Below the pieces are notes generated by a model. The model did no database searches. It saw only the letters and a list, made by a program, of their open reading frames with translations, and was not told the DNA's origin. From IMG/VR virus record IMGVR_UViG_2718218131_000011, positions 20,026 to 84,025 of that record: a stretch of 64,000 nucleotides of DNA, one strand, 5' to 3'. Position numbers and translations under genes: made by a program. Position 1 is the stretch's first letter, and every line of letters starts with the position of its first letter. The stretch is from a virus. Its lineage: Duplodnaviria; Heunggongvirae; Uroviricota; Caudoviricetes. Positions 38,641 to 52,244 of the stretch are shown here, in pieces.

Positions 38641-39501
38641 TTATTCGGGAAGTTTCAGCTTTGGATTGCGAGAATGGACGATTACAAAACTTTCCCGGCC
38701 TTTCTTCTCAATTGAACAGTCGAGATAACCGATTGTTTTAAGCTGTTCTATCGCTTTCTTAATGATACGGTTTTGCTCGCCAACAGCTGACTGCAAAGCC
38801 AGGCGCTCACGGATTCGCGCGAACGATAGCGGCAACGGGTTCTGCGGAAGGCTTTCGATGAAAGTGTAAATGGCTTGTGCAGCTTCTTTCTTCGGAAGGG
38901 CACGCAAGGCGTGGTGTTGCAACAGAACGCGATAATCAAGCTGGAACAGCTCCCACAGCTTCGAATCAGCCTCCAGCTCTATCAGATCAAGGTCAGCATC
39001 AAAACGCCCGACCTTAAGCAGACCAGTCTGATAGCCGCCTTTAGCATCTTTTCCGCGCTTAAAAGCGATACCCTTGTTACGCAAGCGTCCAAGTGATTCA
39101 TGAATGGTTAAACGCAGTTTCGCATCCAGACGTTTTGAGGGGAAACCACAGGCTTTAGCGAATTCCTGAAACGATAACTGGATGGTGTTTGAGGACAAGC
39201 CGTATTTGCTGAACGCGTAGATGACACCGATCCACGTTTTGAAATCAGTATCCATATCGAGTCGAGGACCGGTGATTTTAATATCATCGTAACCCTCGGC
39301 TTTAGCTATCTCCAGCTGGGAAAACGCTTTGGTGGCATCAATCTCTTTACCTTCTCCTTTGCTCTTTGATGGCTTCGGCACGAATACCCCCAAGCGCATC
39401 AACGCTACAGGCTGCACAGTGTTGTTTGAATTAACTGTTAGTTCTTTTGCCTTACTTTCAATGTCTGCGTAAAGAATATCGGAGATAAATGATTGATTCA
39501 T
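38641..39501 (-). CDS. repA: RepA plasmid replication initiator
   Basis: 286 aa; MNQSFISDILYADIESKAKELTVNSNN...; flanked by iteron arrays. Confidence 0.9.
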   Translation of the reverse strand: MNQSFISDILYADIESKAKELTVNSNNTVQPVALMRLGVFVPKPSKSKGEGKEIDATKAFSQLEIAKAEGYDDIKITGPRLDMDTDFKTWIGVIYAFSKYGLSSNTIQLSFQEFAKACGFPSKRLDAKLRLTIHESLGRLRNKGIAFKRGKDAKGGYQTGLLKVGRFDADLDLIELEADSKLWELFQLDYRVLLQHHALRALPKKEAAQAIYTFIESLPQNPLPLSFARIRERLALQSAVGEQNRIIKKAIEQLKTIGYLDCSIEKKGRESFVIVHSRNPKLKLPE

Positions 39502-42388: not shown

Positions 42389-43286
42389 GCACTGGAAAAA
42401 CATTACTATTTATAAACTTTCTCGTGAGGCGGATCTGACCGACTTAGAAGATAAAAAGAAAATGATCCTTTTCACGCCATGCGGTAGTCAGGATATGGCC
42501 AAGTTCGGTTTTGTATCTCCATTTGGTGATAATTCCGAAGTTATCGCTATGCATGGAAATGGTTTTATCCTTGTTGAAGCAAAGCGCGAAACAAAAATTC
42601 TTCCCCCGCCGGTTATCCAGCGAGCTATTCAAGAAAAAATTGAAAAACTTGAGCAAGAACAAGCGCGTAAACTGAAGAAAACAGAGAAGGACTCCCTGAA
42701 AGACGAAGTTCTGCATTCTCTTCTGCCACGGGCTTTTTCAAAGTTTTCTGTTATCCAGGCGATCTACGACGGTTCAACTAAACGTATCTATATCAATGCC
42801 AGCGCGCGGCAGGCAGAGGATATGCTCGCGCTTATGCGTAAGTCTCTGGGTTCTCTTCCTGTTGTTCCCCTGAGTGTTGAAAATCCCATTGAATTAACGC
42901 TGACCGACTGGGTACGTGATGGTAGTGCTCCACAGGGATTTCAAATGGGGGATGCGGCAGAACTTAAGGCAGTGCTTGAGGATGGCGGTATTGCCCGAGT
43001 GAAAAAGCAGGATTTGGGAAGCGATGAAATTTCCACACACCTGGAAGCTGGCAAGCTCGTCACTAAGTTGGCACTCGACTGGCAGAACCGCATTAAATTT
43101 ACACTGGACCATAACTTCAGCCTTACCAGCGTCAAATTTGCGGATGAATTGCTTGAGCAGAACTCTGATATTGATAGTGAAGATGTTGCGCAGCGACTGG
43201 ACGCAGATTTCTTCCTGTTGACCAGTGAAATTTCGTGCCTGGTTGATGCTCTGGTAAATGCCCTTGGTGGAGAGGCTAAGCAGTGA
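42381..43286 (+). CDS. hrdC: RdgC-like recombination-associated protein
   Basis: Start [16 protein letters not shown]; [66 protein letters not shown] near-identical in pattern to E. coli RdgC. Confidence 0.85.
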
Positions 43287-45547
43287 AAGAGCTGTGCTAT
43301 GGATCTGTTTGCAGTGGAATTGAAGCCGCGAGTATTGCCTGGGAACCGTTGGGTATGCGTCCGGCGTGGTTTGCTGAAATCGAGCCTTTTCCATCTGCCG
43401 TTCTTGCGCACCGCTGGCCCCATGTCGCCAACCTTGGCGACATGACAAAACTTGCCAAAAAAGTCCTGGCTGGGGAAATCGAATCCCCTGATGTGCTCGT
43501 CGGGGGTACGCCTTGTCAGGCATTCAGTATCGCGGGCTTACGTGGTGGGCTTGATGATGAACGCGGCGCGCTAACTTTGAAGTATGTGGAGCTTGCAAAT
43601 GCAATTGACGACAAACGGTCTGAGTCCTTCCTCAAACCGACAGTTATCGTCTGGGAAAATGTCCCAGGAGTCCTGTCATCGGCAGATAACGCCTTCGGAT
43701 GTTTCCTTGCCGGATTGGCTGGAGAAGATGCGCCATTTGAACCAGGTGATCGACCTGAATCAGGAAAAAGTAACGCGTTCTGGCGGTGGGATGGCAAAAC
43801 CGGTTGCCATGCTCCAAAGTGGCCGCAGTGTGGTTGTATTTATGGACCGCAGCGAAAGGTGGCCTGGAGAATCCTTGATGCCCAATACTTCGGAGTGGCA
43901 CAACGACGCCGACGCGTGTTTGTTGTCGCAAGTGCTCGAACAGACCTCGATCCCGCAACGGTACTTTTTGAGTTCGAAGGCGTGCGCCGGAATATTGCGC
44001 CGAGCCGAAAAAAGAAGGAAATCGCTTCCGCCATTATTGCAAATGGCGCTGCAATCAGTGGCGAAAGCCTAAATCCATGCCTACACGCTGACATGCCACC
44101 CGGTATGAAATCGACGAAAGCCGTAAACGCTTTCAGGATGGCAGCATTTGGGGAATATATTGACGATGAAACCGCATCGACAGTAAAGGCAAGAGATTTT
44201 AAAGATGCCACTGACCTTGCCGTTTTTAGCAGCACAGGAGCAGGTTTTTGGTCAGAAGGGCATGGTACATTGCGGGCACGTGAGCAAGAAAGCCATGAGC
44301 ATCTTGTTACATTGGCTTTTCCTGAGCGTATGAGCGGTACACAACATGCTGCAACTAAGAATACTTCACCATCTCTAATGGCTAAAAATCCAACAGCTGT
44401 TTGCTATGAAGTAAGAAACGCAGAAGTAGCTGTCCGCCGTCTTACCCCTGTCGAATGTGAAAGGCTGCAAGGTTTTCCTGATGGGCATACGTTGATCCCG
44501 ACGGAAAAGCGTAAAAAAGTTAATTCAGATGAACTGGCATATCTTCGCAATCACTATCCAGATTTAAGCGAAGAAGAGGCCGCGATGCTTGCAGCTGACG
44601 GACCGCGTTACAAAGCGATCGGCAATAGTATGGCAATACCAGTAATGCGCTGGATTGGCGATCGGATTACTAAGGCCGTATGTCGGCAGAAAGAAGGAAG
44701 TGAAACAAAAGAGCGAAAAGTTAAACCAGCGGCAGAATTCGAACGGTCCATATTCAAATGGGCTGGTGGAAAATTTGGTGTTCTGGAACAAATCTTTCGC
44801 TATTTGCCAGAAGGGAAGCGCCTGATTGAACCTTTCGTTGGTGGCGGAGCTGTCTTCATGAATGCCGGATACCAGGAAAATCTGCTAAATGATGTGAATG
44901 CTGACCTGATTAACTTTTACAAGACTCTGCAACGCGAGGCGCATTCACTTATCACTCTGGCACATCGTTTCTTCCAGGACTACAACACACAGGAAGGATA
45001 CCTGGCAGTACGGAATGCGTTTAACAAACAAGTCTATGATGATTTACATCGCGCAGCGGCGTTTTTGTTCCTGAACCGACATTGTTTTAATGGATTGACG
45101 CGCTACAACCAGGCCGGTGAGTTCAATGTCGGGTATGGGAAGTATAAGTCTACGCATTTTCCATTACAGGAGATGGAAGCCTTCCTCGGTGCGGAAGGGC
45201 GGTCTGAGTTTCTATGCGGTGATTTTGCAGCGGTGATTGAAGCTGCCGGAGAAGGAGATGTCATCTTTTGCGATCCGCCGTATGAACCGCTCCCCAATAC
45301 AGAGGGGTTCACGAACTATTCCGGTCATGACTTTAAGTTTGAAGAGCAAAAACGCCTGGTGTCTCTGTTGACGGATGCTCATCGCCGAGGTGCAAAGGTT
45401 CTCATTACTAACAGTGGCGCGCCAAACATCAGAGAACTTTATCAGGACAGTGGCTTCAGAGTGGAACCTCTTTTTGCCAGACGTTCTGTGTCTTGTAAGG
45501 GAGACACTCGTGGTGTTGCTCATGACGTTATAGCAATATTGCTCTAA
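43283..45547 (+). CDS. dmt: bifunctional DNA methyltransferase Dmt (N-terminal C5-cytosine MTase, C-terminal Dam-like N6-adenine MTase)
   Basis: 754 aa; [12 protein letters not shown] and ENV motifs in N-terminal half; Dam-like motifs including DPPYEP in C-terminal half; GTG start overlapping hrdC stop. Confidence 0.85.
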
Positions 45548-45758: not shown

Positions 45759-45911
45759 CAGGGGTTTCGTCATGGTTAGCGACTTTGCGGCGGTTTAGCG
45801 AAAAACGCCGTAAACCCTCGCCTAATGCGGGCGGGTATATAAGGCGAAAAGCCAACAGGGCTTTAAAAAAATCATTACGGTGTTAGCATAAAAAGCCTGT
45901 ATCAATGAGCG

Positions 45912-47087
45912 GTGACTATGTTAAGAGCAACAAAAGTACGCATTTACCCGACACCAGAACAGGCAGAGTACCTCAATGCCCAGTTCGGTGCAGTGCGCTT
46001 TGCGTACAACAAAGCTCTTCACATCAAAAAACATGCTTACCAGCGACATGGAGTAAATTTAAGTCCGCGTAACGATCTGAAACCGCTGCTTGCAGTGGCA
46101 AAGAAATCCCGCAGGTATGGATGGCTTAAAGAATATGATTCTATTGCGTTGCAACAGGCGGTAATTAATCTTGATGTGGCATTTTCCAACTTTTTTAATC
46201 CGAAGCTGAAAGCGCGGTTCCCGACGTTTAAACGTAAACACGGAAAACAATCGAGCTATCACTGTGTCGGGATTAAGGTGCTGGATAATGCCATCAAAAT
46301 CCCAAAACTGTCCCTAATAGAAGCACGCCTTCACCGTGAACTTCATGGAAAGCTGAAAAGCATCACTATCACCTGTTCAGCAACGGGGAAATACTATGCT
46401 TCAATTCTCTGTGATGATGGCATGGAAGCTCCGGCAAAACCCACGTTGATATCAACAGTTACTGGCCTAGATATGGGATTATCGCACTTTGCCATCAAGT
46501 CTGATGGGGTAAAAATTGCAAATCCCCGCCATCTCATCAATGCCAGCCGTAATCTGCGACGCAAACAAAAAGCCTTATCCCGCAAGCAAAAGGGAAGCGC
46601 GAATCGTAAAAAGGCCACAATCCGTCTGGCAGCGTTACACGAACGGGTGGCTAATGCCCGTGCTGATTTTCAACACAAGCTCTCTCGTGCAATTGTTGAC
46701 GAAAACCAAGCGGTAATTGTCGAGATGCTGAAAACAGCCAACATGATGAAAAACCACAATCTGGCAAGAGCGATAGGTGATGCAGGCTGGCATAGCTTCA
46801 TCACAAAGCTGGAGTACAAGGCAGCGGAAAAAGGCGTTCACCTAGTAAAACTCGACCAGTGGTTTGCCAGTTCGAAAGCCTGCTATTGTTGTGGTTACAA
46901 AATGCCGGAAATGCCGCTTCATAAACGCATCTGGCGATGCCCTGAATGTGGAGCAGAGCACGACCGCGATATCAATGCGGCACTCAACATCCGGCAAAAA
47001 GGAATACTGGAACTACAGGCGGCGGGACTCGTCGTCTCCGCCCATGGAGGCCAGCGTAAATCCGTCGCACAGACGGTTGTGGCATGA
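45912..47087 (+). CDS. tnpB: TnpB (OrfB) RNA-guided nuclease-type transposon protein, IS200/IS605 family
   Basis: 391 aa; N-terminal MLRATKVRIYPTPEQ...YNKAL; C-terminal zinc finger CYCCG...CPECG with RuvC-like region. Confidence 0.85.
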   Translation: MTMLRATKVRIYPTPEQAEYLNAQFGAVRFAYNKALHIKKHAYQRHGVNLSPRNDLKPLLAVAKKSRRYGWLKEYDSIALQQAVINLDVAFSNFFNPKLKARFPTFKRKHGKQSSYHCVGIKVLDNAIKIPKLSLIEARLHRELHGKLKSITITCSATGKYYASILCDDGMEAPAKPTLISTVTGLDMGLSHFAIKSDGVKIANPRHLINASRNLRRKQKALSRKQKGSANRKKATIRLAALHERVANARADFQHKLSRAIVDENQAVIVEMLKTANMMKNHNLARAIGDAGWHSFITKLEYKAAEKGVHLVKLDQWFASSKACYCCGYKMPEMPLHKRIWRCPECGAEHDRDINAALNIRQKGILELQAAGLVVSAHGGQRKSVAQTVVA

Positions 47088-47776
47088 GAAGTGGGAAGCC
47101 TCGCCCGACAGGGCGGGGAGCAGTCACAAACTGACCATTAAAGTAAATGCAAACGATGATCTGATGATGGTTGCGGCCTAAGAAGCCTGACACCACGGGG
47201 TTGTCCCCGTCTGTGTATTAGGGAACGAGGAGGCATAACAGGCAGGGGCGCTGGTTTGATTAACCAGATGAACGAGAAGGGGCCATCTTCTGGTCAGCGT
47301 CCTTACCTGTTACGTCCTTTTTCATTCAGCGTAACAGCCGGTTCTTAACAGCCTTTGGGTAGAGTTCCTCGTATTTACGAGTATATTCCGTCATGCTGAA
47401 GGCGCTAATCACGCTGGAAGCTAGGGGGGGATCCCCTGTTACCGAATTGCAGCCAGGGCGCGGGTGTAGTGGTTTATTGATTGTTACGGCGCATTCTGGG
47501 CTGTACTAAATTTCTGCGCCTAATACTACTACACTTGCCGTTTACTGATGTGTGGTATGTTGCATATGGGCAACTGCAAAATGGCATCTGAATCGATCGC
47601 AGTTTGGCATTCGAATCGATCATGATTTGGCATCCATCTCCGATCACAGTTTGGCATCACAATCGATCACGATTTGGCATGCTTCCGATCATTGATTGGC
47701 ATCCTGCCAGTCACTCCGGGAATTAACTCTTTTCACCACAGTCTCCATTGCCGTGTTTAAACCAGTGGAGACGTCA

Positions 47777-49342
47777 ATGTCCAGAAAGAGAAAATCCAGG
47801 AGCACTATGGAAACCTGTTTTAAGATTCTTCAGCTCAAGTTCGACAAGAAGCTGACTAACCGTTGTATCGGACTGACGTTACACATCAGCGCCTCAACCG
47901 TTTTTGAGGTTCTTGCCCGCTTCAAAGCCTCTTCTCTGTCATGGCCATTACCTGCTGATATATCCCATGACACGCTGGAGAAACTCATTTTTCCGCCCAA
48001 AGACACCTTTGCATCAGAGCTTGTAATGCCTGACATGTTGTACCTCGATACGGAAATGAGAAAACCAGGTGTGACGCGGCAACTGTTGTGGATGGAATAC
48101 AAGGCACAGGCGGGTAACAAAGCGATGGGATACTCGCACTTCTGCCGTTGCTACCGGGAGTGGAAAAAAACGCGACGTCTCTCCATGCGCCAGGAGCATC
48201 GTGCCGGCGAAAAGCTTTTTATCGACTTCTGTGGTCCTACGGTTCCTGTTATTAATCCGGACACCGGTGAGATACGCCGCGTGGCAATCTTCGTGGCCGT
48301 AATGGGGGCGTCCAACTATACCTACGTTGAAGCGTGCGAAGGTCAGGACATGATGTCATGGTTAAATGCCCACAGCCGTTGCCTGACCTTCCTGGGCGGC
48401 GTACCGAAGCTGCTCATCCCCGATAACCTCAGAAGCGCAGTGAAAAAGGCCGATCGATATGAGCCTGTCATCAACGACAGTTATCAGGCACTGGCTGAGC
48501 ACTATGGCACGGTTATCATCCCGGCCCGACCACGCAAACCTAAAGATAAACCAAAAGCAGAAAACGGCGTCCTCATCGTCGAACGATGGCTTCTTGCCCG
48601 CATCCGTAATGAAACCTTCCACACGCTCAGGGCGCTGAATGCGCGCCTTAGGGAGTTACTGACAGACATGAATAACCGGCCAATGAAGGGGTACGGCAAT
48701 CAAACCCGTGCAGAACGCTTCCGCATACTGGATGCGCCAGCACTCTCTCCGCTGCCTCTGGCACCTTATGAATACACGGAATACAAAGCTGTGAAGGTTG
48801 GCCCTGACTACCACGTTGAATATGCCCGTCACTGGTACTCCGTTCCACACGAACTGGTCGGTCAGCGTCTGTCACTGAAGGCGGGGCAGTCGGTGGTACA
48901 GCTCTGGCACAAGGGGCAGTGTGTGGCGCAACATCCGCGCAGCACACATGAATATAAACACACAACCAATCCGCTTCACATGCCAGAGCGCCACCGGCAG
49001 CACGGGACATGGACACCGGAACGCCTGATCGAGCAGGGAAAACGTACGGGCCCGTCCACAGGCCGGGTGGTTGAATCCATGCTGAAGGCAAAACCCCATC
49101 CGGAACTGGCTTATCGTGCAGTTCTGGGGCTGCTGGCACTTCAGAAAAAATACGGCCCGGAACGGCTGGAAAAGGCCTGTTACGTTGCCCTGCACTATAA
49201 CGCCCCTGACAGACGCTTTATCGACAATCTGCTGCGTCACCATCGGGAGAACCTGGAGCTTCCATTATCCCGCCAGGGCGAACAACATCCGGCATATGCT
49301 TCAGAGCATGAAAACCTGCGTGGTCCGGGCTACTACCACTGA
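47777..49342 (+). CDS. istA: IS21-family transposase IstA
   Basis: Start at MSRKRK with GGAG RBS; HTH N-terminus and DDE-type core. Confidence 0.85.
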   Translation: MSRKRKSRSTMETCFKILQLKFDKKLTNRCIGLTLHISASTVFEVLARFKASSLSWPLPADISHDTLEKLIFPPKDTFASELVMPDMLYLDTEMRKPGVTRQLLWMEYKAQAGNKAMGYSHFCRCYREWKKTRRLSMRQEHRAGEKLFIDFCGPTVPVINPDTGEIRRVAIFVAVMGASNYTYVEACEGQDMMSWLNAHSRCLTFLGGVPKLLIPDNLRSAVKKADRYEPVINDSYQALAEHYGTVIIPARPRKPKDKPKAENGVLIVERWLLARIRNETFHTLRALNARLRELLTDMNNRPMKGYGNQTRAERFRILDAPALSPLPLAPYEYTEYKAVKVGPDYHVEYARHWYSVPHELVGQRLSLKAGQSVVQLWHKGQCVAQHPRSTHEYKHTTNPLHMPERHRQHGTWTPERLIEQGKRTGPSTGRVVESMLKAKPHPELAYRAVLGLLALQKKYGPERLEKACYVALHYNAPDRRFIDNLLRHHRENLELPLSRQGEQHPAYASEHENLRGPGYYH

Positions 49343-49358
49343 CAGAAGGAACAACAGT

Positions 49359-50114
49359 ATGAGTGATAACCTGTTAAACAAACTGACCCAACTGAAACTC
49401 CCGGCGATGGCCGGGAGCCTGATACGGCAGCGGGAAACGCCTCAGACCTACGACGAACTGTCGTTCGAGGAAAGGCTGACGCTGCTGGTTGATGACGAGC
49501 TTCTGAGCAGGGAAAACAGCCGTGTGGCACGGTTGAGAAAAAATGCCGGCCTGAAATACCAGGCAACACCGGAAGGGCTGCGCTATCCGGCCTCAAGAGG
49601 TCTGCGGGCTGAACAGATGAGAGAACTGCTGAACGGCCACTACATAACCCACAGGAAAAACCTGCTGATAACCGGTCCGACAGGATGTGGCAAGAGCTGG
49701 ATAGCCAATGCGCTGGGCGAACAGGCATGTCGACAGAAACACAGCGTCCGGTACTGTAGAACCGGGCGATTACTGGAACAACTGGCTCAGGGACGTGTTG
49801 ATGGCAGCTGGCTGAAATATCTGAAACAGTTGCAAAAAATACAGGTTCTAATCCTGGACGATCTGGGGCTGGAACAGTTAAGTAACGCCCAGTGTAATGA
49901 CCTTCTGGAGCTCATAGAGGATCGTTACGGACAAAGCAGCACGATAGTGGTAAGCCAGTTCCCGGTAGATAAATGGCATGGTCTGATGGAGAACCCAACA
50001 ACAGCAGATGCCATCCTGGACAGACTGGTACATAACTCACACCGGGTGGTCCTTCAGGGAGAGTCACTGAGGAAAAATCCCCCGGTAGTGGAAAGCAGCG
50101 AAAAAACGCGTTAA
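49359..50114 (+). CDS. istB: IS21-family helper ATPase IstB
   Basis: Start MSDNLLNKLTQLKLP with AAGGA RBS; Walker A GPTGCGKS; Walker B VLILDDLG. Confidence 0.85.
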   Translation: MSDNLLNKLTQLKLPAMAGSLIRQRETPQTYDELSFEERLTLLVDDELLSRENSRVARLRKNAGLKYQATPEGLRYPASRGLRAEQMRELLNGHYITHRKNLLITGPTGCGKSWIANALGEQACRQKHSVRYCRTGRLLEQLAQGRVDGSWLKYLKQLQKIQVLILDDLGLEQLSNAQCNDLLELIEDRYGQSSTIVVSQFPVDKWHGLMENPTTADAILDRLVHNSHRVVLQGESLRKNPPVVESSEKTR

Positions 50115-50577
50115 AAAGCGGTAGAAAAAGTTAAGTTCCCGGTTGATCGAATGGATGCGAATCGCTGATCGGACTTCGATGCCAATCCGTGATCGAATAG
50201 AGCGGAATACGCAGGCAACACACTCAAGCCTGATGCAGCACGGTCAGGTAGGGGACGCCGACCTAATGTCTCGCCCTGCAAGGGCGGACGAAAGTAGATC
50301 ACTATTCCGCGCAGCTATTTAGAAAGAACAGGTATTGAATTACCTGGAGAACAACTTACTTACGTTTCCGCCACACCTTCGCTAGTTACTTTATGATGAA
50401 TGATGGTAATATTCTGGTATTGTAACGAGTGCTCAGATATACTTACATCTAAATAACAATGATATATGTTCAATTTAACCTTGAATATTTTGTAATGTTA
50501 CACGACTTTAAAATTTAGAAGAAGAGGATTCGGTTGAATCCGATATTAAATCTGAGACAGGAATATAAGGTTACACG

Positions 50578-51513
50578 ATGAAGCTTAAAAAACTACAATC
50601 TCTTGATTTTGTGAATGATTTTATGAGTCACCTAGAAACTGATTTTGAAAAAGAATTATTCACAGCTTGTTTGCGAAATTATGCATCACATGGCAACCCA
50701 TTACGTTTTCATAACTTTGCATTTTCAATTCGCGAGCTAATAAAGCATATTATCGAGAAAAAATCTCCGAATGATAAATTATTACAAGCATCGTGGTATA
50801 AGAGAGAACATGAACATTACGAAATATCTAGAAGACAGCGTTTAAAATACTGTTCTCAAGCTAAAATTTCAGATGCGTACTTGGGGGAAGAGTTCCTGGA
50901 GGAGTCGAATGAAAGAATAGATGAGATGCTTAAGCTTTATTTCTTCTTAAATAAATATACGCATATAACAGAGAAATATATGCATCCATCACCTCAAGAG
51001 TTCTTCCTGAAGGCCAAACAAATACTGCAGATCGCTACAGAAATACTAAATGGTATACATATTTGTAGAGATGAATTAATTCGTACTCTCGAAGATAAAA
51101 TTAGAAATGCAGTTATTGACACGGCGGTAAGCTCTATGCCTGAAAACCTAGTGACTATCGCGAATCATGCGTATGTAGATTACACTGAAGTCGAAGAATT
51201 TGGAATCACGTCGATTGATGATGAGTACATCAATATATATGCTTCCGGTACTGTCTATGTTACTCAAGAATATGGTTCTAGGAATGATGGGGTTAGCCTA
51301 GAAGAAAGTTATCCGTTCACGTTGCACATGGCTTCTCACTTAGACTCTCCTGAAACATTTGAAGTCATATCTGAAGCTTTAGAGGTAGACACTTCATCGT
51401 GGTACGATGATGGGGAGCAGGAGGATCAAATGATGGATATGGAAAGAAATGAAATTCATCGAATATCTGTTGCACCCCCAGACTTTGAGATGGATGACAA
51501 TGTACCATTCTAA
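50578..51513 (+). CDS. hypothetical cargo protein ending in an SSB C-terminal-tail-like peptide
   Basis: 311-aa ORF in AT-rich DNA with AT-rich promoter-like leader; no recognisable catalytic motif; C-terminus VAPPDFEMDDNVPF versus [14 protein letters not shown]. Confidence 0.6.
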   Translation: MKLKKLQSLDFVNDFMSHLETDFEKELFTACLRNYASHGNPLRFHNFAFSIRELIKHIIEKKSPNDKLLQASWYKREHEHYEISRRQRLKYCSQAKISDAYLGEEFLEESNERIDEMLKLYFFLNKYTHITEKYMHPSPQEFFLKAKQILQIATEILNGIHICRDELIRTLEDKIRNAVIDTAVSSMPENLVTIANHAYVDYTEVEEFGITSIDDEYINIYASGTVYVTQEYGSRNDGVSLEESYPFTLHMASHLDSPETFEVISEALEVDTSSWYDDGEQEDQMMDMERNEIHRISVAPPDFEMDDNVPF

Positions 51514-51699
51514 CATAAAGAAACATAGGCTAGTAGCGATGAAGTGCGGTAAAAATGGCTAAAACTAGATAAGTAATGGCAATCTGTGCCAATGAGTAAA
51601 TAACACAACCTATTAGATCTGCATTTATTTTTCAAAGGGATCATAATCGCACAGCCACCGGTTCAAGCCCGGTAGGGGACACCTTATTTGGTAGTTGTA

Positions 51700-52239
51700 C
51701 GGCGTATGGCACATGCGTCGATGAAATCAAAACAGACGATGTGCTGCGTATTTTTGTAGACCACGCTGCATTTGACGTTAGTGGGTTTGATCACTCTTTG
51801 AGTATCCTTATGAACCTTCAGCGCCGACCGTTCCGTATGAGGCCAGAACGTTGATCGATGACGGATTGGTTACCATTGATTCGGGGAATATTTCGGTAAC
51901 CCCATACAGACGGACGCCGGTACCAGCAACCGAATTCGCAGCTGAATTGCGTAAGAGTGACGTTTTTATCGTTACGCATCCCGAAAGCCTTGGATTAACT
52001 GTTCTTGAGGCGGCAATGTGTGGAGCGTTGATATTAACGCTCCACACATTGCCTTCCGCCGGATCGCCTGGATTTGGTGAACCATATGGTTATCAAGTCG
52101 CGGATTGATTGGGATGAGGTTATTGCTCGCGTTGATCGCGTGAAAAATGCTGAAAAGGTCCAGTGTCACACCTGGTCGGCAATCGCGGGAACGATGATTG
52201 AGACGTTTGCCGCGCCGAAATCACTGCGCGGCTTATAAC
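51700..52239 (+). pseudogene. remnant of a GT4-type glycosyltransferase (C-terminal part only, frameshifted)
   Basis: Frame fragments ...SDVFIVTHPESLGLTVLEAAMCGA... then in another frame ...DLVNHMVIKSRIDWDEVIARVDRVKNAEKVQCHTWSAIAGTMIETFAAPKSLRGL*; no N-terminal domain; interrupted by a palindrome. Confidence 0.5.
52012..52053. repeat. 42-bp perfect palindrome inside the glycosyltransferase remnant
   Basis: GGCAATGTGTGGAGCGTT-GATATT-AACGCTCCACACATTGCC (18-bp arms). Confidence 0.9.
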
Positions 52240-52244
52240 ATCAC

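What the first reader, a model, noticed from the sequence alone, without database searches (positions are those of the whole stretch)
51640..52240. Glycosyltransferase remnant split by a 42-bp perfect palindrome, next to a tRNA 3' fragment
Only the C-terminal part of a GT4-like gene remains, frameshifted, and interrupted by GGCAATGTGTGGAGCGTT-GATATT-AACGCTCCACACATTGCC. Just upstream, ACCGGTTCAAGCCCGGTAGGGGACACC resembles a tRNA T-arm plus 3' acceptor strand with no matching 5' half. These look like scars of past recombination or integration, and the palindrome could be a recombination or cleavage site.
Basis: seen in the sequence. Interest (0 to 1): 0.4.

Follow-up and report, generated by a model that had tools for sequence, protein, structure and literature searches.

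The report
Three recombination scars in P1-like plasmid
This stretch of a P1-type phage-plasmid holds three ordinary scars: the junction left when a second phage (186/P2 type) inserted into P1's own isoleucine-tRNA gene, a deletion that left half of a dead sugar-transferase gene, and a near-palindrome in that gene that one DNA-copying slip made perfect.

Summary
The palindrome is at 52012-52053, the tRNA 3' piece at 51641-51684 and the truncated, frameshifted glycosyltransferase remnant at 51723-52238. The window is a P1-like IncY phage-plasmid and the remnant is P1 dbn, codons 161 to the end.

The palindrome does not split the gene. Every other dbn allele surveyed has an imperfect inverted repeat at the same place. 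In this lineage 6 nt of the right arm (CGCCCG) became 7 nt (TCCACAC), the exact reverse complement of GTGTGGA in the left arm. No intermediates turned up anywhere. That is the signature of a quasipalindrome template-switch mutation, here in a gene that was already dead.

The tRNA piece is the 3' part of P1 trnI (tRNA-Ile2, CAU), starting in the anticodon loop. Directly upstream lie a decayed C-terminus of a 186-type integrase, a pPIWI-associated nuclease gene and an attachment-site arm. The order integrase, nuclease, arm, tRNA-Ile2 3' fragment recurs in 186-like prophages elsewhere, one clearly at a chromosomal site. So this is a prophage-host junction: a P2-family phage integrated into P1's tRNA gene. 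A 2,094-bp deletion next to it removed ban and the first half of dbn.

All mechanisms are known, so interest is modest.

The parts
50300..50554 (+). Decayed C-terminal remnant (about aa 258-333 of 334) of a 186-type tyrosine integrase, with a frameshift and stop codons
   Evidence: tblastn of the L124 integrase against the window: aa 261-279 and 280-333, E = 2.4e-14. The six-frame view shows ...ERTGIELPGEQLTYV / RHTFASYFMMNDGNILVL*RVL...ITMIYVQF. There is 75.7% DNA identity to the int gene of an E. coli 186-like prophage.
50578..51513 (+). Intact 311-aa cargo gene for a predicted pPIWI-associating nuclease, sitting between the int remnant and the att site
   Evidence: Pfam PF18165 (1.5e-34) plus PF18166 (2.1e-33); PADLOC Aga_Nuclease 1.2e-62. 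Homologues at 84-86% identity lie directly downstream of int in 186-like prophages L124, L123 and L129.
51514..51640 (+). Phage-side arm of the attachment site (P arm) of the int-proximal prophage junction
   Evidence: It is homologous to the sequence between the cargo gene and the tRNA fragment in L124, L126 and L129, for example ...atggcaatct(g/a)tg(c/t)caatga(g)taaataa...ctatt(a)gat....
51641..51650 (+). Shared core TCATAATCGC (anticodon CAT, loop and 3' anticodon stem): the region where the integrase crossover must have happened
   Evidence: These are the only bases common to the window, the chromosomal junctions (L124, L126, L129) and P1 trnI. To the left all junctions are phage-arm-like. 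To the right the window is P1-type and the others are ileX-type.
51641..51684 (+). 3' part (positions 33-76) of the P1-type tRNA-Ile2 (CAU) gene trnI; not a functional tRNA
   Evidence: 39/44 identical to P1 trnI, with the P1-specific T stem ACCGG/CCGGT. ARAGORN finds 0 genes in the window, with positive controls in P1, RCS47 and E. albertii.
51685..51720 (+). Native P1 DNA downstream of trnI (the target-side arm)
   Evidence: The ungapped alignment to P1 continues to 36 nt past the tRNA 3' end.
51721..51722 (.). Junction of a 2,094-bp deletion that removed ban (the DnaB-like helicase gene) and codons 1-160 of dbn
   Evidence: P1 homology stops at locus L001 position 1906 and resumes at 4001, which is dbn nucleotide 481. 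The same junction is shared by plasmids L004 and L109-L114.
51723..52238 (+). dbn (P7 glt) pseudogene remnant, codons 161 to the stop; a putative GT-B glycosyltransferase
   Evidence: 93-95% identical to dbn/glt of P1, P7, RCS47 and SJ46. RefSeq annotates it as a frameshifted, N-terminally incomplete glycosyltransferase pseudogene. P1 Dbn gives a weak Glycos_transf_1 match (25.0 bits against a cut-off of 26.4).
51825..51826 (+). 1-nt deletion (a T lost from GCCTGACC), the first frameshift
   Evidence: Present only in the window group and in L004. It is absent from the other truncated alleles L109-L114 and from all intact alleles checked.
52012..52053 (.). 42-nt palindrome: left arm 52012-52029, centre 52030-52035, right arm 52036-52053
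52018..52024 (+). GTGTGGA, the donor (template) segment in the left arm
   Evidence: Identical in alleles that keep the imperfect right arm (L111, L100, L012, L093, L033, L070).
52041..52047 (+). TCCACAC, the converted segment: it replaces the 6-nt CGCCCG, is the exact reverse complement of 52018-52024, and causes the +1 frameshift
   Evidence: Unique to the window group among 59 haplotypes and about 120 loci. Among 478 E. coli records, 9 are at 100% identity, none at 95-99% and 467 at 90-95%.
52186..53397 (-). Diverged dbn 3' end plus a two-gene module (233-aa ORF at 52245-52946 and 130-aa ORF at 53005-53397, both on the minus strand) that P1 lacks
   Evidence: Shared with E. albertii plasmids that have an intact dbn (L118). 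The ORFs match phrog_25194 and phrog_34496, both of unknown function. No match in the phage collection.

Best explanation
The region is a stack of historical scars in a P1-family phage-plasmid, not a working element.

Step 1 (inferred from anatomy, strongly supported). A 186-type (P2-family) temperate phage normally integrates into the bacterial tRNA-Ile2 genes ileX/ileY. Here it used the homologous tRNA gene carried by P1 itself (trnI) as its attachment site, with the crossover in the anticodon loop. That produced the junction still visible: integrase, cargo nuclease, phage arm, core TCATAATCGC, P1's own tRNA 3' part, P1 downstream DNA.

Step 2 (shown by comparison). Deletions then removed most of that prophage together with P1 trnA, trnT, plp, upl, tciABC and the 5' half of trnI on the left. 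On the right, 2,094 bp were lost (ban plus dbn codons 1-160). This left a dead dbn 3' half.

Step 3 (shown by distribution among relatives). The dead gene then lost 1 nt at 51825/6.

Step 4 (inferred mechanism). The dbn coding sequence naturally contains an imperfect inverted repeat. During DNA synthesis the nascent plus-sense strand copied the left arm, the centre and the inner 5 bp of the right arm. It then paired back onto the left-arm sequence, either its own strand or the sister template, and copied it across the mismatched patch. It then returned to the proper template. This one event replaced CGCCCG with TCCACAC (+1 nt) and made the palindrome perfect.

In intact dbn alleles such an event would be a lethal frameshift in the conserved E-A-A-x-x-G motif region and would be removed by selection. 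Here the gene was already dead, so the change survived.
For: Identity of the backbone and gene:
-.

Palindrome:
- The imperfect repeat is at the same position in P1, RCS47 and every other allele.
- Haplotypes exist with an identical left arm, centre and outer stem but the imperfect right arm. They occur both in intact dbn (L100, L012 and others) and in truncated dbn (L111).
- All changes in the 7-nt patch create complementarity to the left arm.
- No partly converted intermediate was found in 478 E. coli records, 470 plasmids (or 48), or in IMG/VR, metagenome and genome scans with a degenerate pattern.
- Background divergence from the closest relative L004 is about 0.5% (17 mismatches in 1,995 nt, including the patch). 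Five edits within 7 nt are therefore not expected from independent mutation.
- The hairpin energy rises from -9.4 to -23.8 kcal/mol.
- The mechanism, and its habit of making quasipalindromes 'perfect or more perfect', is established in E. coli (PMC7202029).

Order of events:
- The truncation is shared by L004 and L109-L114, the -1 deletion only by L004 and the window group, and the perfect palindrome only by the window group.

Integration junction:
- The int remnant is at 50300-50554.
- The order cI, int, nuclease, arm, tRNA-Ile2 3' fragment, with the break at the same anticodon-loop position, is seen in L124 and L129. L123 shows cI, int and nuclease up to its contig end.
- An E. coli 186-like prophage next to nfeF, nfeR and aer (the ileX neighbourhood in K-12, from my own knowledge) has the same arm and junction with a different cargo gene.
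- To the right of the core the window is P1-type and runs on into the P1 flank.
- Phage 186 integrates at ileY/ileX, and 186-type integrases target tRNA genes (PMC3448106).
- The stretch between integrase and att is a described minor cargo hotspot of P2-like phages (PMC13586616).
Against: - No P1-like plasmid with the complete 186-like prophage, or with the other junction (an intact chimeric tRNA), was found. The integration is therefore inferred from one junction only.
- The two overall closest relatives (L004 upstream, L118 downstream) carry G rather than A at 52024, T rather than C at 52052 and C rather than A at 52072. With them as the ancestor, one template switch does not explain everything. 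Either a short recombinant patch of the L111/L100 haplotype preceded the switch, or an arm mutation was followed by a second switch. Either ancestor also needs one extra point change at 52072/52073.
- The event could have happened in an unsampled donor allele and been imported by recombination.
- The direction of replication, and leading versus lagging strand, cannot be established from sequence.
Confidence: 0.8

Rival explanations
1. The palindrome is a separate inserted or functional element, such as a recombination or cleavage site, a protein-binding site or a terminator, that interrupted the glycosyltransferase gene.
For: It is a long perfect palindrome with a very stable hairpin, and it lies in a rearranged region.
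Against: The net length change is only +1 nt. Thirty-five of the 42 positions are the ordinary dbn coding sequence found in relatives. No run of T follows it, and the terminator scan does not call it. All rearrangement breakpoints lie 130 nt or more away. Rfam gives only sub-threshold microRNA-hairpin noise.
Confidence: 0.04
2. The perfect palindrome arose by several independent point mutations and an insertion, possibly under selection for a hairpin, rather than in one templated event.
For: The remnant is a pseudogene that is free to drift. Other single differences exist nearby (52024, 52052 and 52072 relative to L004/L118).
Against: It would need four substitutions plus one insertion inside 7 nt, every one producing the base complementary to the other arm, against a background of about 0.5% divergence. 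No intermediates were found among more than 900 records.
Confidence: 0.05
3. The tRNA 3' fragment comes from illegitimate or homology-assisted recombination, for example between P1 trnI and a chromosomal ileX junction, or a random deletion end-point. It would then not come from integrase-mediated integration into the P1 tRNA gene.
For: Only one junction survives. There is no intact integrase, no second att site and no intact tRNA in the window. P1-like genomes are highly mosaic.
Against: The break is at exactly the anticodon-loop position seen in independent junctions of 186-like prophages (L124 and L129 downstream of the homologous nuclease; L126 at the E. coli ileX neighbourhood with a different cargo gene). 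The same phage arm lies on its left, and an int remnant lies in the expected place and orientation. To the right of the 10-nt core the sequence switches cleanly to P1-type. A homology-driven exchange inside the tRNA would more likely leave a chimeric 3' half.
Confidence: 0.1
4. The template switch happened in a different, unsampled dbn allele (possibly an intact one, which it killed) and reached this lineage by homologous recombination together with the downstream two-gene module.
For: The window is a mosaic here. Upstream it is closest to L004, and downstream (the dbn 3' end plus the two ORFs) it is closest to E. albertii plasmids. Every record with the perfect palindrome also has the module.
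Against: The only sampled module carriers with intact dbn (the E. albertii plasmids) have the imperfect repeat. This changes where the event occurred, not what it was.
Confidence: 0.15
5. The features are sequencing or assembly artefacts.
For: Palindromes and homopolymer frameshifts can be produced by some sequencing platforms.
Against: The identical sequence appears in many independent assemblies from different laboratories, hosts and countries.
Confidence: 0.01

Closest known systems
Quasipalindrome-associated template-switch mutation (Ripley 1982 model; E. coli thyA, rpsL and lacZ QP5/QP6 hotspots, Lovett, Maki and Sinden laboratories; PMC7202029)
   Same: A pre-existing imperfect inverted repeat. 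A complex multi-base change, including a frameshift, confined to one arm. Every change makes that arm the exact complement of the other. The result is a perfect repeat.
   Different: This is a natural, fixed event in a circulating plasmid lineage, seen only by comparison and not selected in a reporter. The arms are longer than in the laboratory reporters (18 nt, with a 7-nt converted patch). The exact ancestor is ambiguous at one arm position. Dependence on replication, exonucleases or strand is untested.
Integration of coliphage 186 and 186-type P2-like phages at the tRNA-Ile genes ileY/ileX (PMC3448106)
   Same: A 186-type tyrosine integrase (Int_N plus Phage_integrase) is transcribed towards the att site. 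The target is a CAU-anticodon tRNA-Ile2 gene. The junction consists of a phage arm followed by a tRNA 3' fragment.
   Different: The target here is the tRNA gene carried by another temperate phage (P1 trnI, annotated as 89% identical to ileX), not the chromosome. Only one decayed junction survives. The integrase clade is about 75% identical in DNA to the E. coli examples.
The trnI-ban-dbn-gene 5 segment of phage P1 (annotation of NC_005856)
   Same: Same gene order and 93-95% identity for the surviving parts (trnI 3' part and flank, dbn 3' half, genes 5, 6, 24, 7, 25).
   Different: trnA, trnT, plp, upl, tciABC, the trnI 5' half, ban and the dbn 5' half are missing. An int remnant plus a nuclease gene, a TnpB element, an IS21-family element and a two-gene module have been added.
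Cargo or defence hotspot between integrase and att site of P2-like prophages (PMC13586616)
   Same: The nuclease gene occupies exactly this position in L124, L123 and L129. Other cargo genes occupy it in E. coli prophages.
   Different: Anti-phage activity of this stand-alone nuclease is untested. In the window the hotspot gene has been stranded in a different phage family.
pPIWI-RE / Argonaute-associated nuclease (Pfam PF18165 and PF18166; PADLOC Aga_Nuclease)
   Same: Full-length, strong matches to both domains.
   Different: No pPIWI/Argonaute or helicase partner gene is adjacent in the window or in the related prophages examined.

Membership tests
Quasipalindrome template-switch mutation | An imperfect inverted repeat existed at the site before the event | tested here: met
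   All other alleles (59 haplotypes, about 120 loci) have an imperfect repeat at the same position.
Quasipalindrome template-switch mutation | The changes are clustered in one arm, and every change gives the exact complement of the other arm | tested here: met
   CGCCCG became TCCACAC at 52041-52047, which is the reverse complement of GTGTGGA at 52018-52024.
Quasipalindrome template-switch mutation | The donor arm and spacer are unchanged relative to the ancestor | tested here: inconclusive
   Met relative to the L111/L100 haplotype. Relative to the overall closest relatives L004 and L118, the left arm differs at 52024 (G versus A).
Quasipalindrome template-switch mutation | Single-step origin, with no intermediates | tested here: met
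   Of 478 E. coli records, none fall at 95-99% identity, 9 are at 100% and 467 at 90-95%. Degenerate-pattern scans found only the final form.
Quasipalindrome template-switch mutation | Dependence on replication, suppression by 3' exonucleases, and strand bias | not testable with these tools
   This needs genetics. The only available inference is that oriR lies about 12 kb to the left (repA at 38641-39501), so a rightward fork would make the plus-sense nascent strand the leading strand.
Prophage-host junction of a 186-type tRNA-integrating phage | tRNA 3' fragment that begins at a fixed sublocation (the anticodon loop) | tested here: met
   The break lies before TCATAATCGC in the window and in L124, L126 and L129.
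Prophage-host junction of a 186-type tRNA-integrating phage | A tyrosine integrase gene of the matching clade lies next to the junction | tested here: met
   A decayed int C-terminus is at 50300-50554 (E = 2.4e-14). Intact int genes occupy the same place in L124, L123, L129 and L126.
Prophage-host junction of a 186-type tRNA-integrating phage | Phage-derived arm on one side of the core and target-derived DNA on the other | tested here: met
   The arm at 51514-51640 is homologous to the other junctions. To the right of the core lie the P1-type tRNA and the P1 flank.
Prophage-host junction of a 186-type tRNA-integrating phage | A second junction with a restored intact tRNA, and a direct repeat of the core | tested here: not met
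   There is no tRNA gene in the window or in related plasmids. It was presumably deleted. A 17-nt tRNA-like string at 50238-50254 is at the level of chance or unexplained.
Prophage-host junction of a 186-type tRNA-integrating phage | The integrase recombines attP with this target | not testable with these tools
   An experiment is required.
Functional tRNA gene | Complete cloverleaf with acceptor 5' strand, D arm and anticodon stem | tested here: not met
   ARAGORN finds 0 genes, Rfam gives no tRNA hit, and the alignment shows that only positions 33-76 remain.
GT-B glycosyltransferase (Pfam Glycos_transf_1; 'GT4' in RefSeq naming) | Significant match to the family profile | tested here: inconclusive
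   Intact P1 Dbn scores 25.0 bits against a gathering cut-off of 26.4 (E = 1.5e-5). RefSeq names homologues 'glycosyltransferase family 4 protein'.
GT-B glycosyltransferase (Pfam Glycos_transf_1; 'GT4' in RefSeq naming) | Complete open reading frame | tested here: not met
   Codons 1-160 are missing and there are two frameshifts.
Intrinsic terminator | GC-rich hairpin followed by a run of T | tested here: not met
   The palindrome is followed by TTCCGCCGG. The scan does not call it.

The most novel reading that the evidence does not exclude
P1's own tRNA-Ile2 gene is a genuine, reusable attachment site for 186-type P2-family phages. P1-like phage-plasmids would then capture whole P2-like prophages or their integrase-proximal cargo and spread them by plasmid transfer or transduction. 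The stand-alone pPIWI-associated nuclease would have been kept because it protects the phage-plasmid or its host.
Probability: 0.3. Interest if true: 0.5.

Novelty: new member of a known kind. Interest (0 to 1): 0.28.

Why it matters
- It gives a clean natural example of a quasipalindrome template-switch mutation. The ancestral state is sampled and no intermediates exist. It also illustrates that such events are tolerated once coding constraint is gone.
- It shows that a tRNA gene carried by one temperate phage can serve as the landing site for another. That is a concrete route by which hotspot cargo of P2-family phages (here an Argonaute-associated-type nuclease) enters P1-family phage-plasmids.
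- The perfect palindrome together with the two frameshifts is a simple, unambiguous lineage marker for a P1-like plasmid clade found in pigs, chickens, sheep and humans, in E. coli and K. pneumoniae.
- None of this changes current understanding of the mechanisms involved.

Tried and rejected
- Rfam scan of 50000-53500 at E up to 10 gave only sub-threshold microRNA-like hairpin hits caused by the palindrome. There was no tRNA or known sRNA.
- The promoter and terminator scan found nothing associated with the palindrome.
- I looked for an intact tRNA carrying the window-type 3' half. Every IMG/VR hit is the same truncated architecture.
- I looked for a G/C-perfect intermediate palindrome with a degenerate pattern. 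Metagenomes gave one contig of the final form only, and species-representative genomes gave none.
- I looked for a second donor copy of the arm words in the window and found none.
- I looked for flanking direct repeats around the nuclease module. The only finding was a 17-nt string at 50238-50254 resembling tRNA positions 41-49 plus 63-70. It is not colinear with a full fragment, so I treated it as unexplained or chance.
- The 212-nt segment left of the int remnant has no phage match. Its only other match is 71% identity to an intergenic stretch of cryptic prophage CP4-57, which is uninformative.
- The nuclease protein has no match in the deposited phage collection. The two-gene module also has none there.
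- I searched plasmids for an intact 186-type integrase in a P1-like backbone and found none among the 40 best-ranked of 78 hits. The best hit (an E. hormaechei 'plasmid') is not P1-like.
Full report
**What the window is**

The 801 bases around the finding are 100% identical to IncY plasmids of E. coli (for example NZ_CP101271). Their right two thirds are 93-95% identical to dbn/glt of phages P1, P7, RCS47 and SJ46. In P1 the local order is dmt, trnA, trnT, plp, upl, tciABC, trnI, ban, dbn, then tail genes 5, 6, 24, 7 and 25 on the other strand. The window keeps dmt (43283-45547), repA (38641-39501) and genes 5 onward (53412 and beyond). What lies between them is rearranged.

**Checking the observation**

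The palindrome is at 52012-52053, with 18-nt perfect arms and a GATATT centre. No shuffle of the window reproduces it. As single-stranded DNA it folds at -23.8 kcal/mol.

The tRNA-like string is present. ARAGORN finds no tRNA in the whole window, although it finds the CAU-anticodon gene in P1, RCS47 and an E. albertii plasmid. Rfam finds no tRNA.

The glycosyltransferase remnant spans 51723-52238 and corresponds to P1 dbn nucleotides 481-999. Identical sequence in many independent assemblies rules out a sequencing artefact. RefSeq already marks the remnant as a frameshifted, N-terminally incomplete glycosyltransferase pseudogene.

**The palindrome is not an insertion**

Alignment with P1 and RCS47 shows that the same position in intact dbn reads GGCAATGTGCGGGGCGTTGGTATTAACGCCTCCCG-ATTGCC. 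That is an imperfect inverted repeat inside the coding sequence ...LEAAMCGALVLTPP....

I collected 104 dbn loci from IMG/VR, plus plasmid and phage records, and tabulated this stretch. There are 59 haplotypes of the dbn 3' half. In all of them the mismatched core of the right arm is 6 nt long (CTCCCG, CGCCCG, CGCCAG or CGTCCG). Only the window group has the 7-nt TCCACAC.

One haplotype has exactly the window's left arm, centre and outer stem but the imperfect right arm: GGCAATGTGTGGAGCGTT GATATT AACGC-CGCCCG-ATTGCC. It occurs in intact dbn genes (L100, L012, L093, L033, L070). It also occurs in a plasmid with the same truncated architecture as the window (L111, E. fergusonii pRHB31-C17_2). Relative to it, the only change inside the repeat is CGCCCG to TCCACAC at 52041-52047. 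TCCACAC is the exact reverse complement of GTGTGGA at 52018-52024.

**Why a single templated event**

- The change amounts to four substitutions and one insertion within 7 nt, and every one creates complementarity.
- Divergence from the closest relative is about 0.5% (17 mismatches in 1,995 nt, including this patch).
- In complete E. coli genomes a 116-nt probe finds 478 records. Nine are at 100% identity, none at 95-99% and 467 at 90-95%, so there are no intermediates.
- A degenerate pattern that would also match a G/C-perfect intermediate found only the final form in metagenomes and nothing in species-representative genomes.
- There is no second copy of the arm words in the window that could have acted as a donor.

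This is the textbook footprint of a quasipalindrome template-switch mutation. The nascent strand pairs with the other arm and copies it, making the repeat 'perfect or more perfect' (PMC7202029).

Because the right arm was rewritten to match the left, the switching strand was the plus-sense nascent strand, synthesised left to right. oriR lies upstream of repA, about 12 kb to the left. During plasmid replication this would make it the leading strand, which is the strand favoured in E. coli reporters. That last point is inference only.

**Caveat on the ancestor**

The overall closest relatives are L004 (pBS15R-A_1; same truncation, 99.1% identity upstream) and L118 (E. albertii p2RM15116; same diverged dbn 3' end and downstream module, with intact dbn). 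Both carry GGGG rather than GGAG in the left arm, ATTGTC rather than ATTGCC, and GGCT rather than GGAT just downstream.

Two histories fit:
- (a) A short patch of the L111/L100 haplotype was recombined in, followed by one switch.
- (b) A switch on the L004/L118 haplotype, which would also correct ATTGTC, was followed by a G-to-A change in one arm that a second switch copied to the other.

Each history also needs one extra point change at 52072/52073. Both require a template switch for the core patch.

**Order of decay**

- The truncation junction is shared by L004 and L109-L114.
- The 1-nt deletion at 51825/6 is shared only by L004 and the window group.
- The perfect palindrome, with its +1, and the downstream two-gene module occur only in the window group.

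The repeat was therefore perfected in a gene that was already dead twice over. In an intact gene the same event would be a frameshift in the conserved E-A-A-x-x-G region. That explains why more than 100 intact alleles keep the repeat imperfect.

**The tRNA fragment**

Bases 51641-51720 align without gaps to P1 from trnI position 33, in the anticodon loop, to 36 nt beyond the tRNA end (70/80 identical; 39/44 within the tRNA). P1 homology then jumps 2,094 bp to dbn nucleotide 481. That deletion removed ban and dbn codons 1-160.

Upstream of 51641 the sequence is not P1. It holds an intact 311-aa gene (50578-51513) with strong matches to the two 'pPIWI-associating nuclease' domains and to PADLOC Aga_Nuclease. 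No Argonaute gene is nearby.

**The same block in other prophages**

Looking for this gene elsewhere was decisive.

- In IMG/VR contig L124 and a Pantoea genome (L129), a homologue at 84-86% identity sits in the order CI repressor, 334-aa tyrosine integrase (Int_N plus Phage_integrase), nuclease, about 140 nt of arm, then a tRNA-Ile2 3' fragment.
- In both, the fragment starts at the same anticodon-loop position (...ggaacT|CATAATCGCTTGG...CCACCA), and no intact tRNA is present.
- Contig L123 shows CI, integrase and nuclease and then ends.
- An E. coli chromosome (L126) carries a 186-like prophage with replication endonuclease, Fil, CII, CI and Int. It has a different cargo gene, the same arm and the same junction. 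It lies next to nfeF, nfeR and aer, which is the ileX neighbourhood in K-12 (from my own knowledge).

**The integrase remnant and what it implies**

The window itself retains the integrase C-terminus directly upstream of the nuclease gene, at 50300-50554. It has a frameshift and stop codons but still reads RHTFAS..GNILVL..Y (tblastn E = 2.4e-14).

The only bases common to all junctions and to P1 trnI are TCATAATCGC. To the left all junctions carry the phage arm. To the right the window is P1-type (T stem ACCGG/CCGGT, then the P1 flank), while the others are ileX-type.

Phage 186 is known to integrate at ileY/ileX, and 186-type integrases target tRNA genes (PMC3448106). The stretch between integrase and att is a described minor cargo hotspot of P2-like phages (PMC13586616). 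The P1 record itself notes that trnI is 89% identical to ileX.

The simplest reading is that a 186-type phage integrated into the P1-borne tRNA gene by its normal mechanism. What remains is the integrase-proximal junction. The rest of that prophage, and P1 DNA from 57 nt upstream of trnA to the 5' half of trnI, were later deleted.

The other junction was not found in any record. This is the main gap in the argument.

**Comparison with what is known, and verdict**

Each component belongs to a well-known class:
- a pseudogene remnant, already annotated as such;
- a tRNA-gene attachment-site scar of a tyrosine integrase;
- an illegitimate deletion;
- a quasipalindrome template-switch mutation.

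What is new is only the particular instances. One is a P2-family phage using a P1-family phage's tRNA gene as its target and leaving a nuclease gene behind. The other is a naturally fixed, fully documented repeat-perfecting event.

The 'scars of recombination or integration' reading is right. The idea that the palindrome splits the gene, or is a recombination or cleavage site, is not supported. Interest is modest.

Noticed in passing
window 50578-51513 (+): An intact stand-alone gene for a predicted pPIWI/Argonaute-associated nuclease (PF18165 plus PF18166; PADLOC Aga_Nuclease 1e-62). No Argonaute or helicase partner is nearby. It is conserved in about 20 P1-like plasmids and in 186-like prophages, where it sits as cargo between int and att. 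It may be a solo defence gene.
   Followed up: partly
window 45799-47127 and 47575-50213: Two later insertions lie between dmt and the int remnant. One is a TnpB-only IS200/IS605-type element, absent from L111. The other is a 2,639-bp IS21-family element (istA at 47696-49342, istB to 50114), absent from L004 and apparently with a 6-bp target duplication.
   Followed up: partly
window 52245-53397 (-), with the diverged dbn 3' end from about 52186: A two-gene module (233 aa, phrog_25194; 130 aa, phrog_34496; both of unknown function, with weak PADLOC PDC-M64B/C hits) is inserted between dbn and gene 5. It is shared with E. albertii P1-like plasmids from wild birds that have an intact dbn, and it is absent from every deposited phage record.
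   Followed up: partly
whole window (1-64000): No tRNA gene is detected at all. This lineage has lost all three P1 tRNA genes (trnA, trnT, trnI) together with plp, upl, tciABC and the helicase gene ban, yet it circulates widely.
   Followed up: partly
window 50238-50259: GCACGGTCAGGTAGGGGACGCC resembles P1 trnI positions 41-49 fused to 63-70 (T arm missing). It lies 40 nt upstream of the int remnant, inside a 212-nt segment of unknown origin that is about 71% identical to an intergenic stretch of cryptic prophage CP4-57. It may be chance or an older att remnant.
   Followed up: partly
E. coli chromosomal 186-like prophages (L126 and hits H109-H113): The position between int and the ileX junction holds different cargo genes in different strains: a 415-aa hypothetical protein, or DUF6602 plus a SEC-C domain protein. 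This fits a variable cargo hotspot.
   Followed up: no
NZ_CP080139.1 (E. coli PK8241 chromosome, hit H41): One perfect-palindrome copy lies in a record labelled as a 5.5-Mb chromosome. This suggests either a P1-like element integrated in the chromosome or a merged assembly.
   Followed up: no
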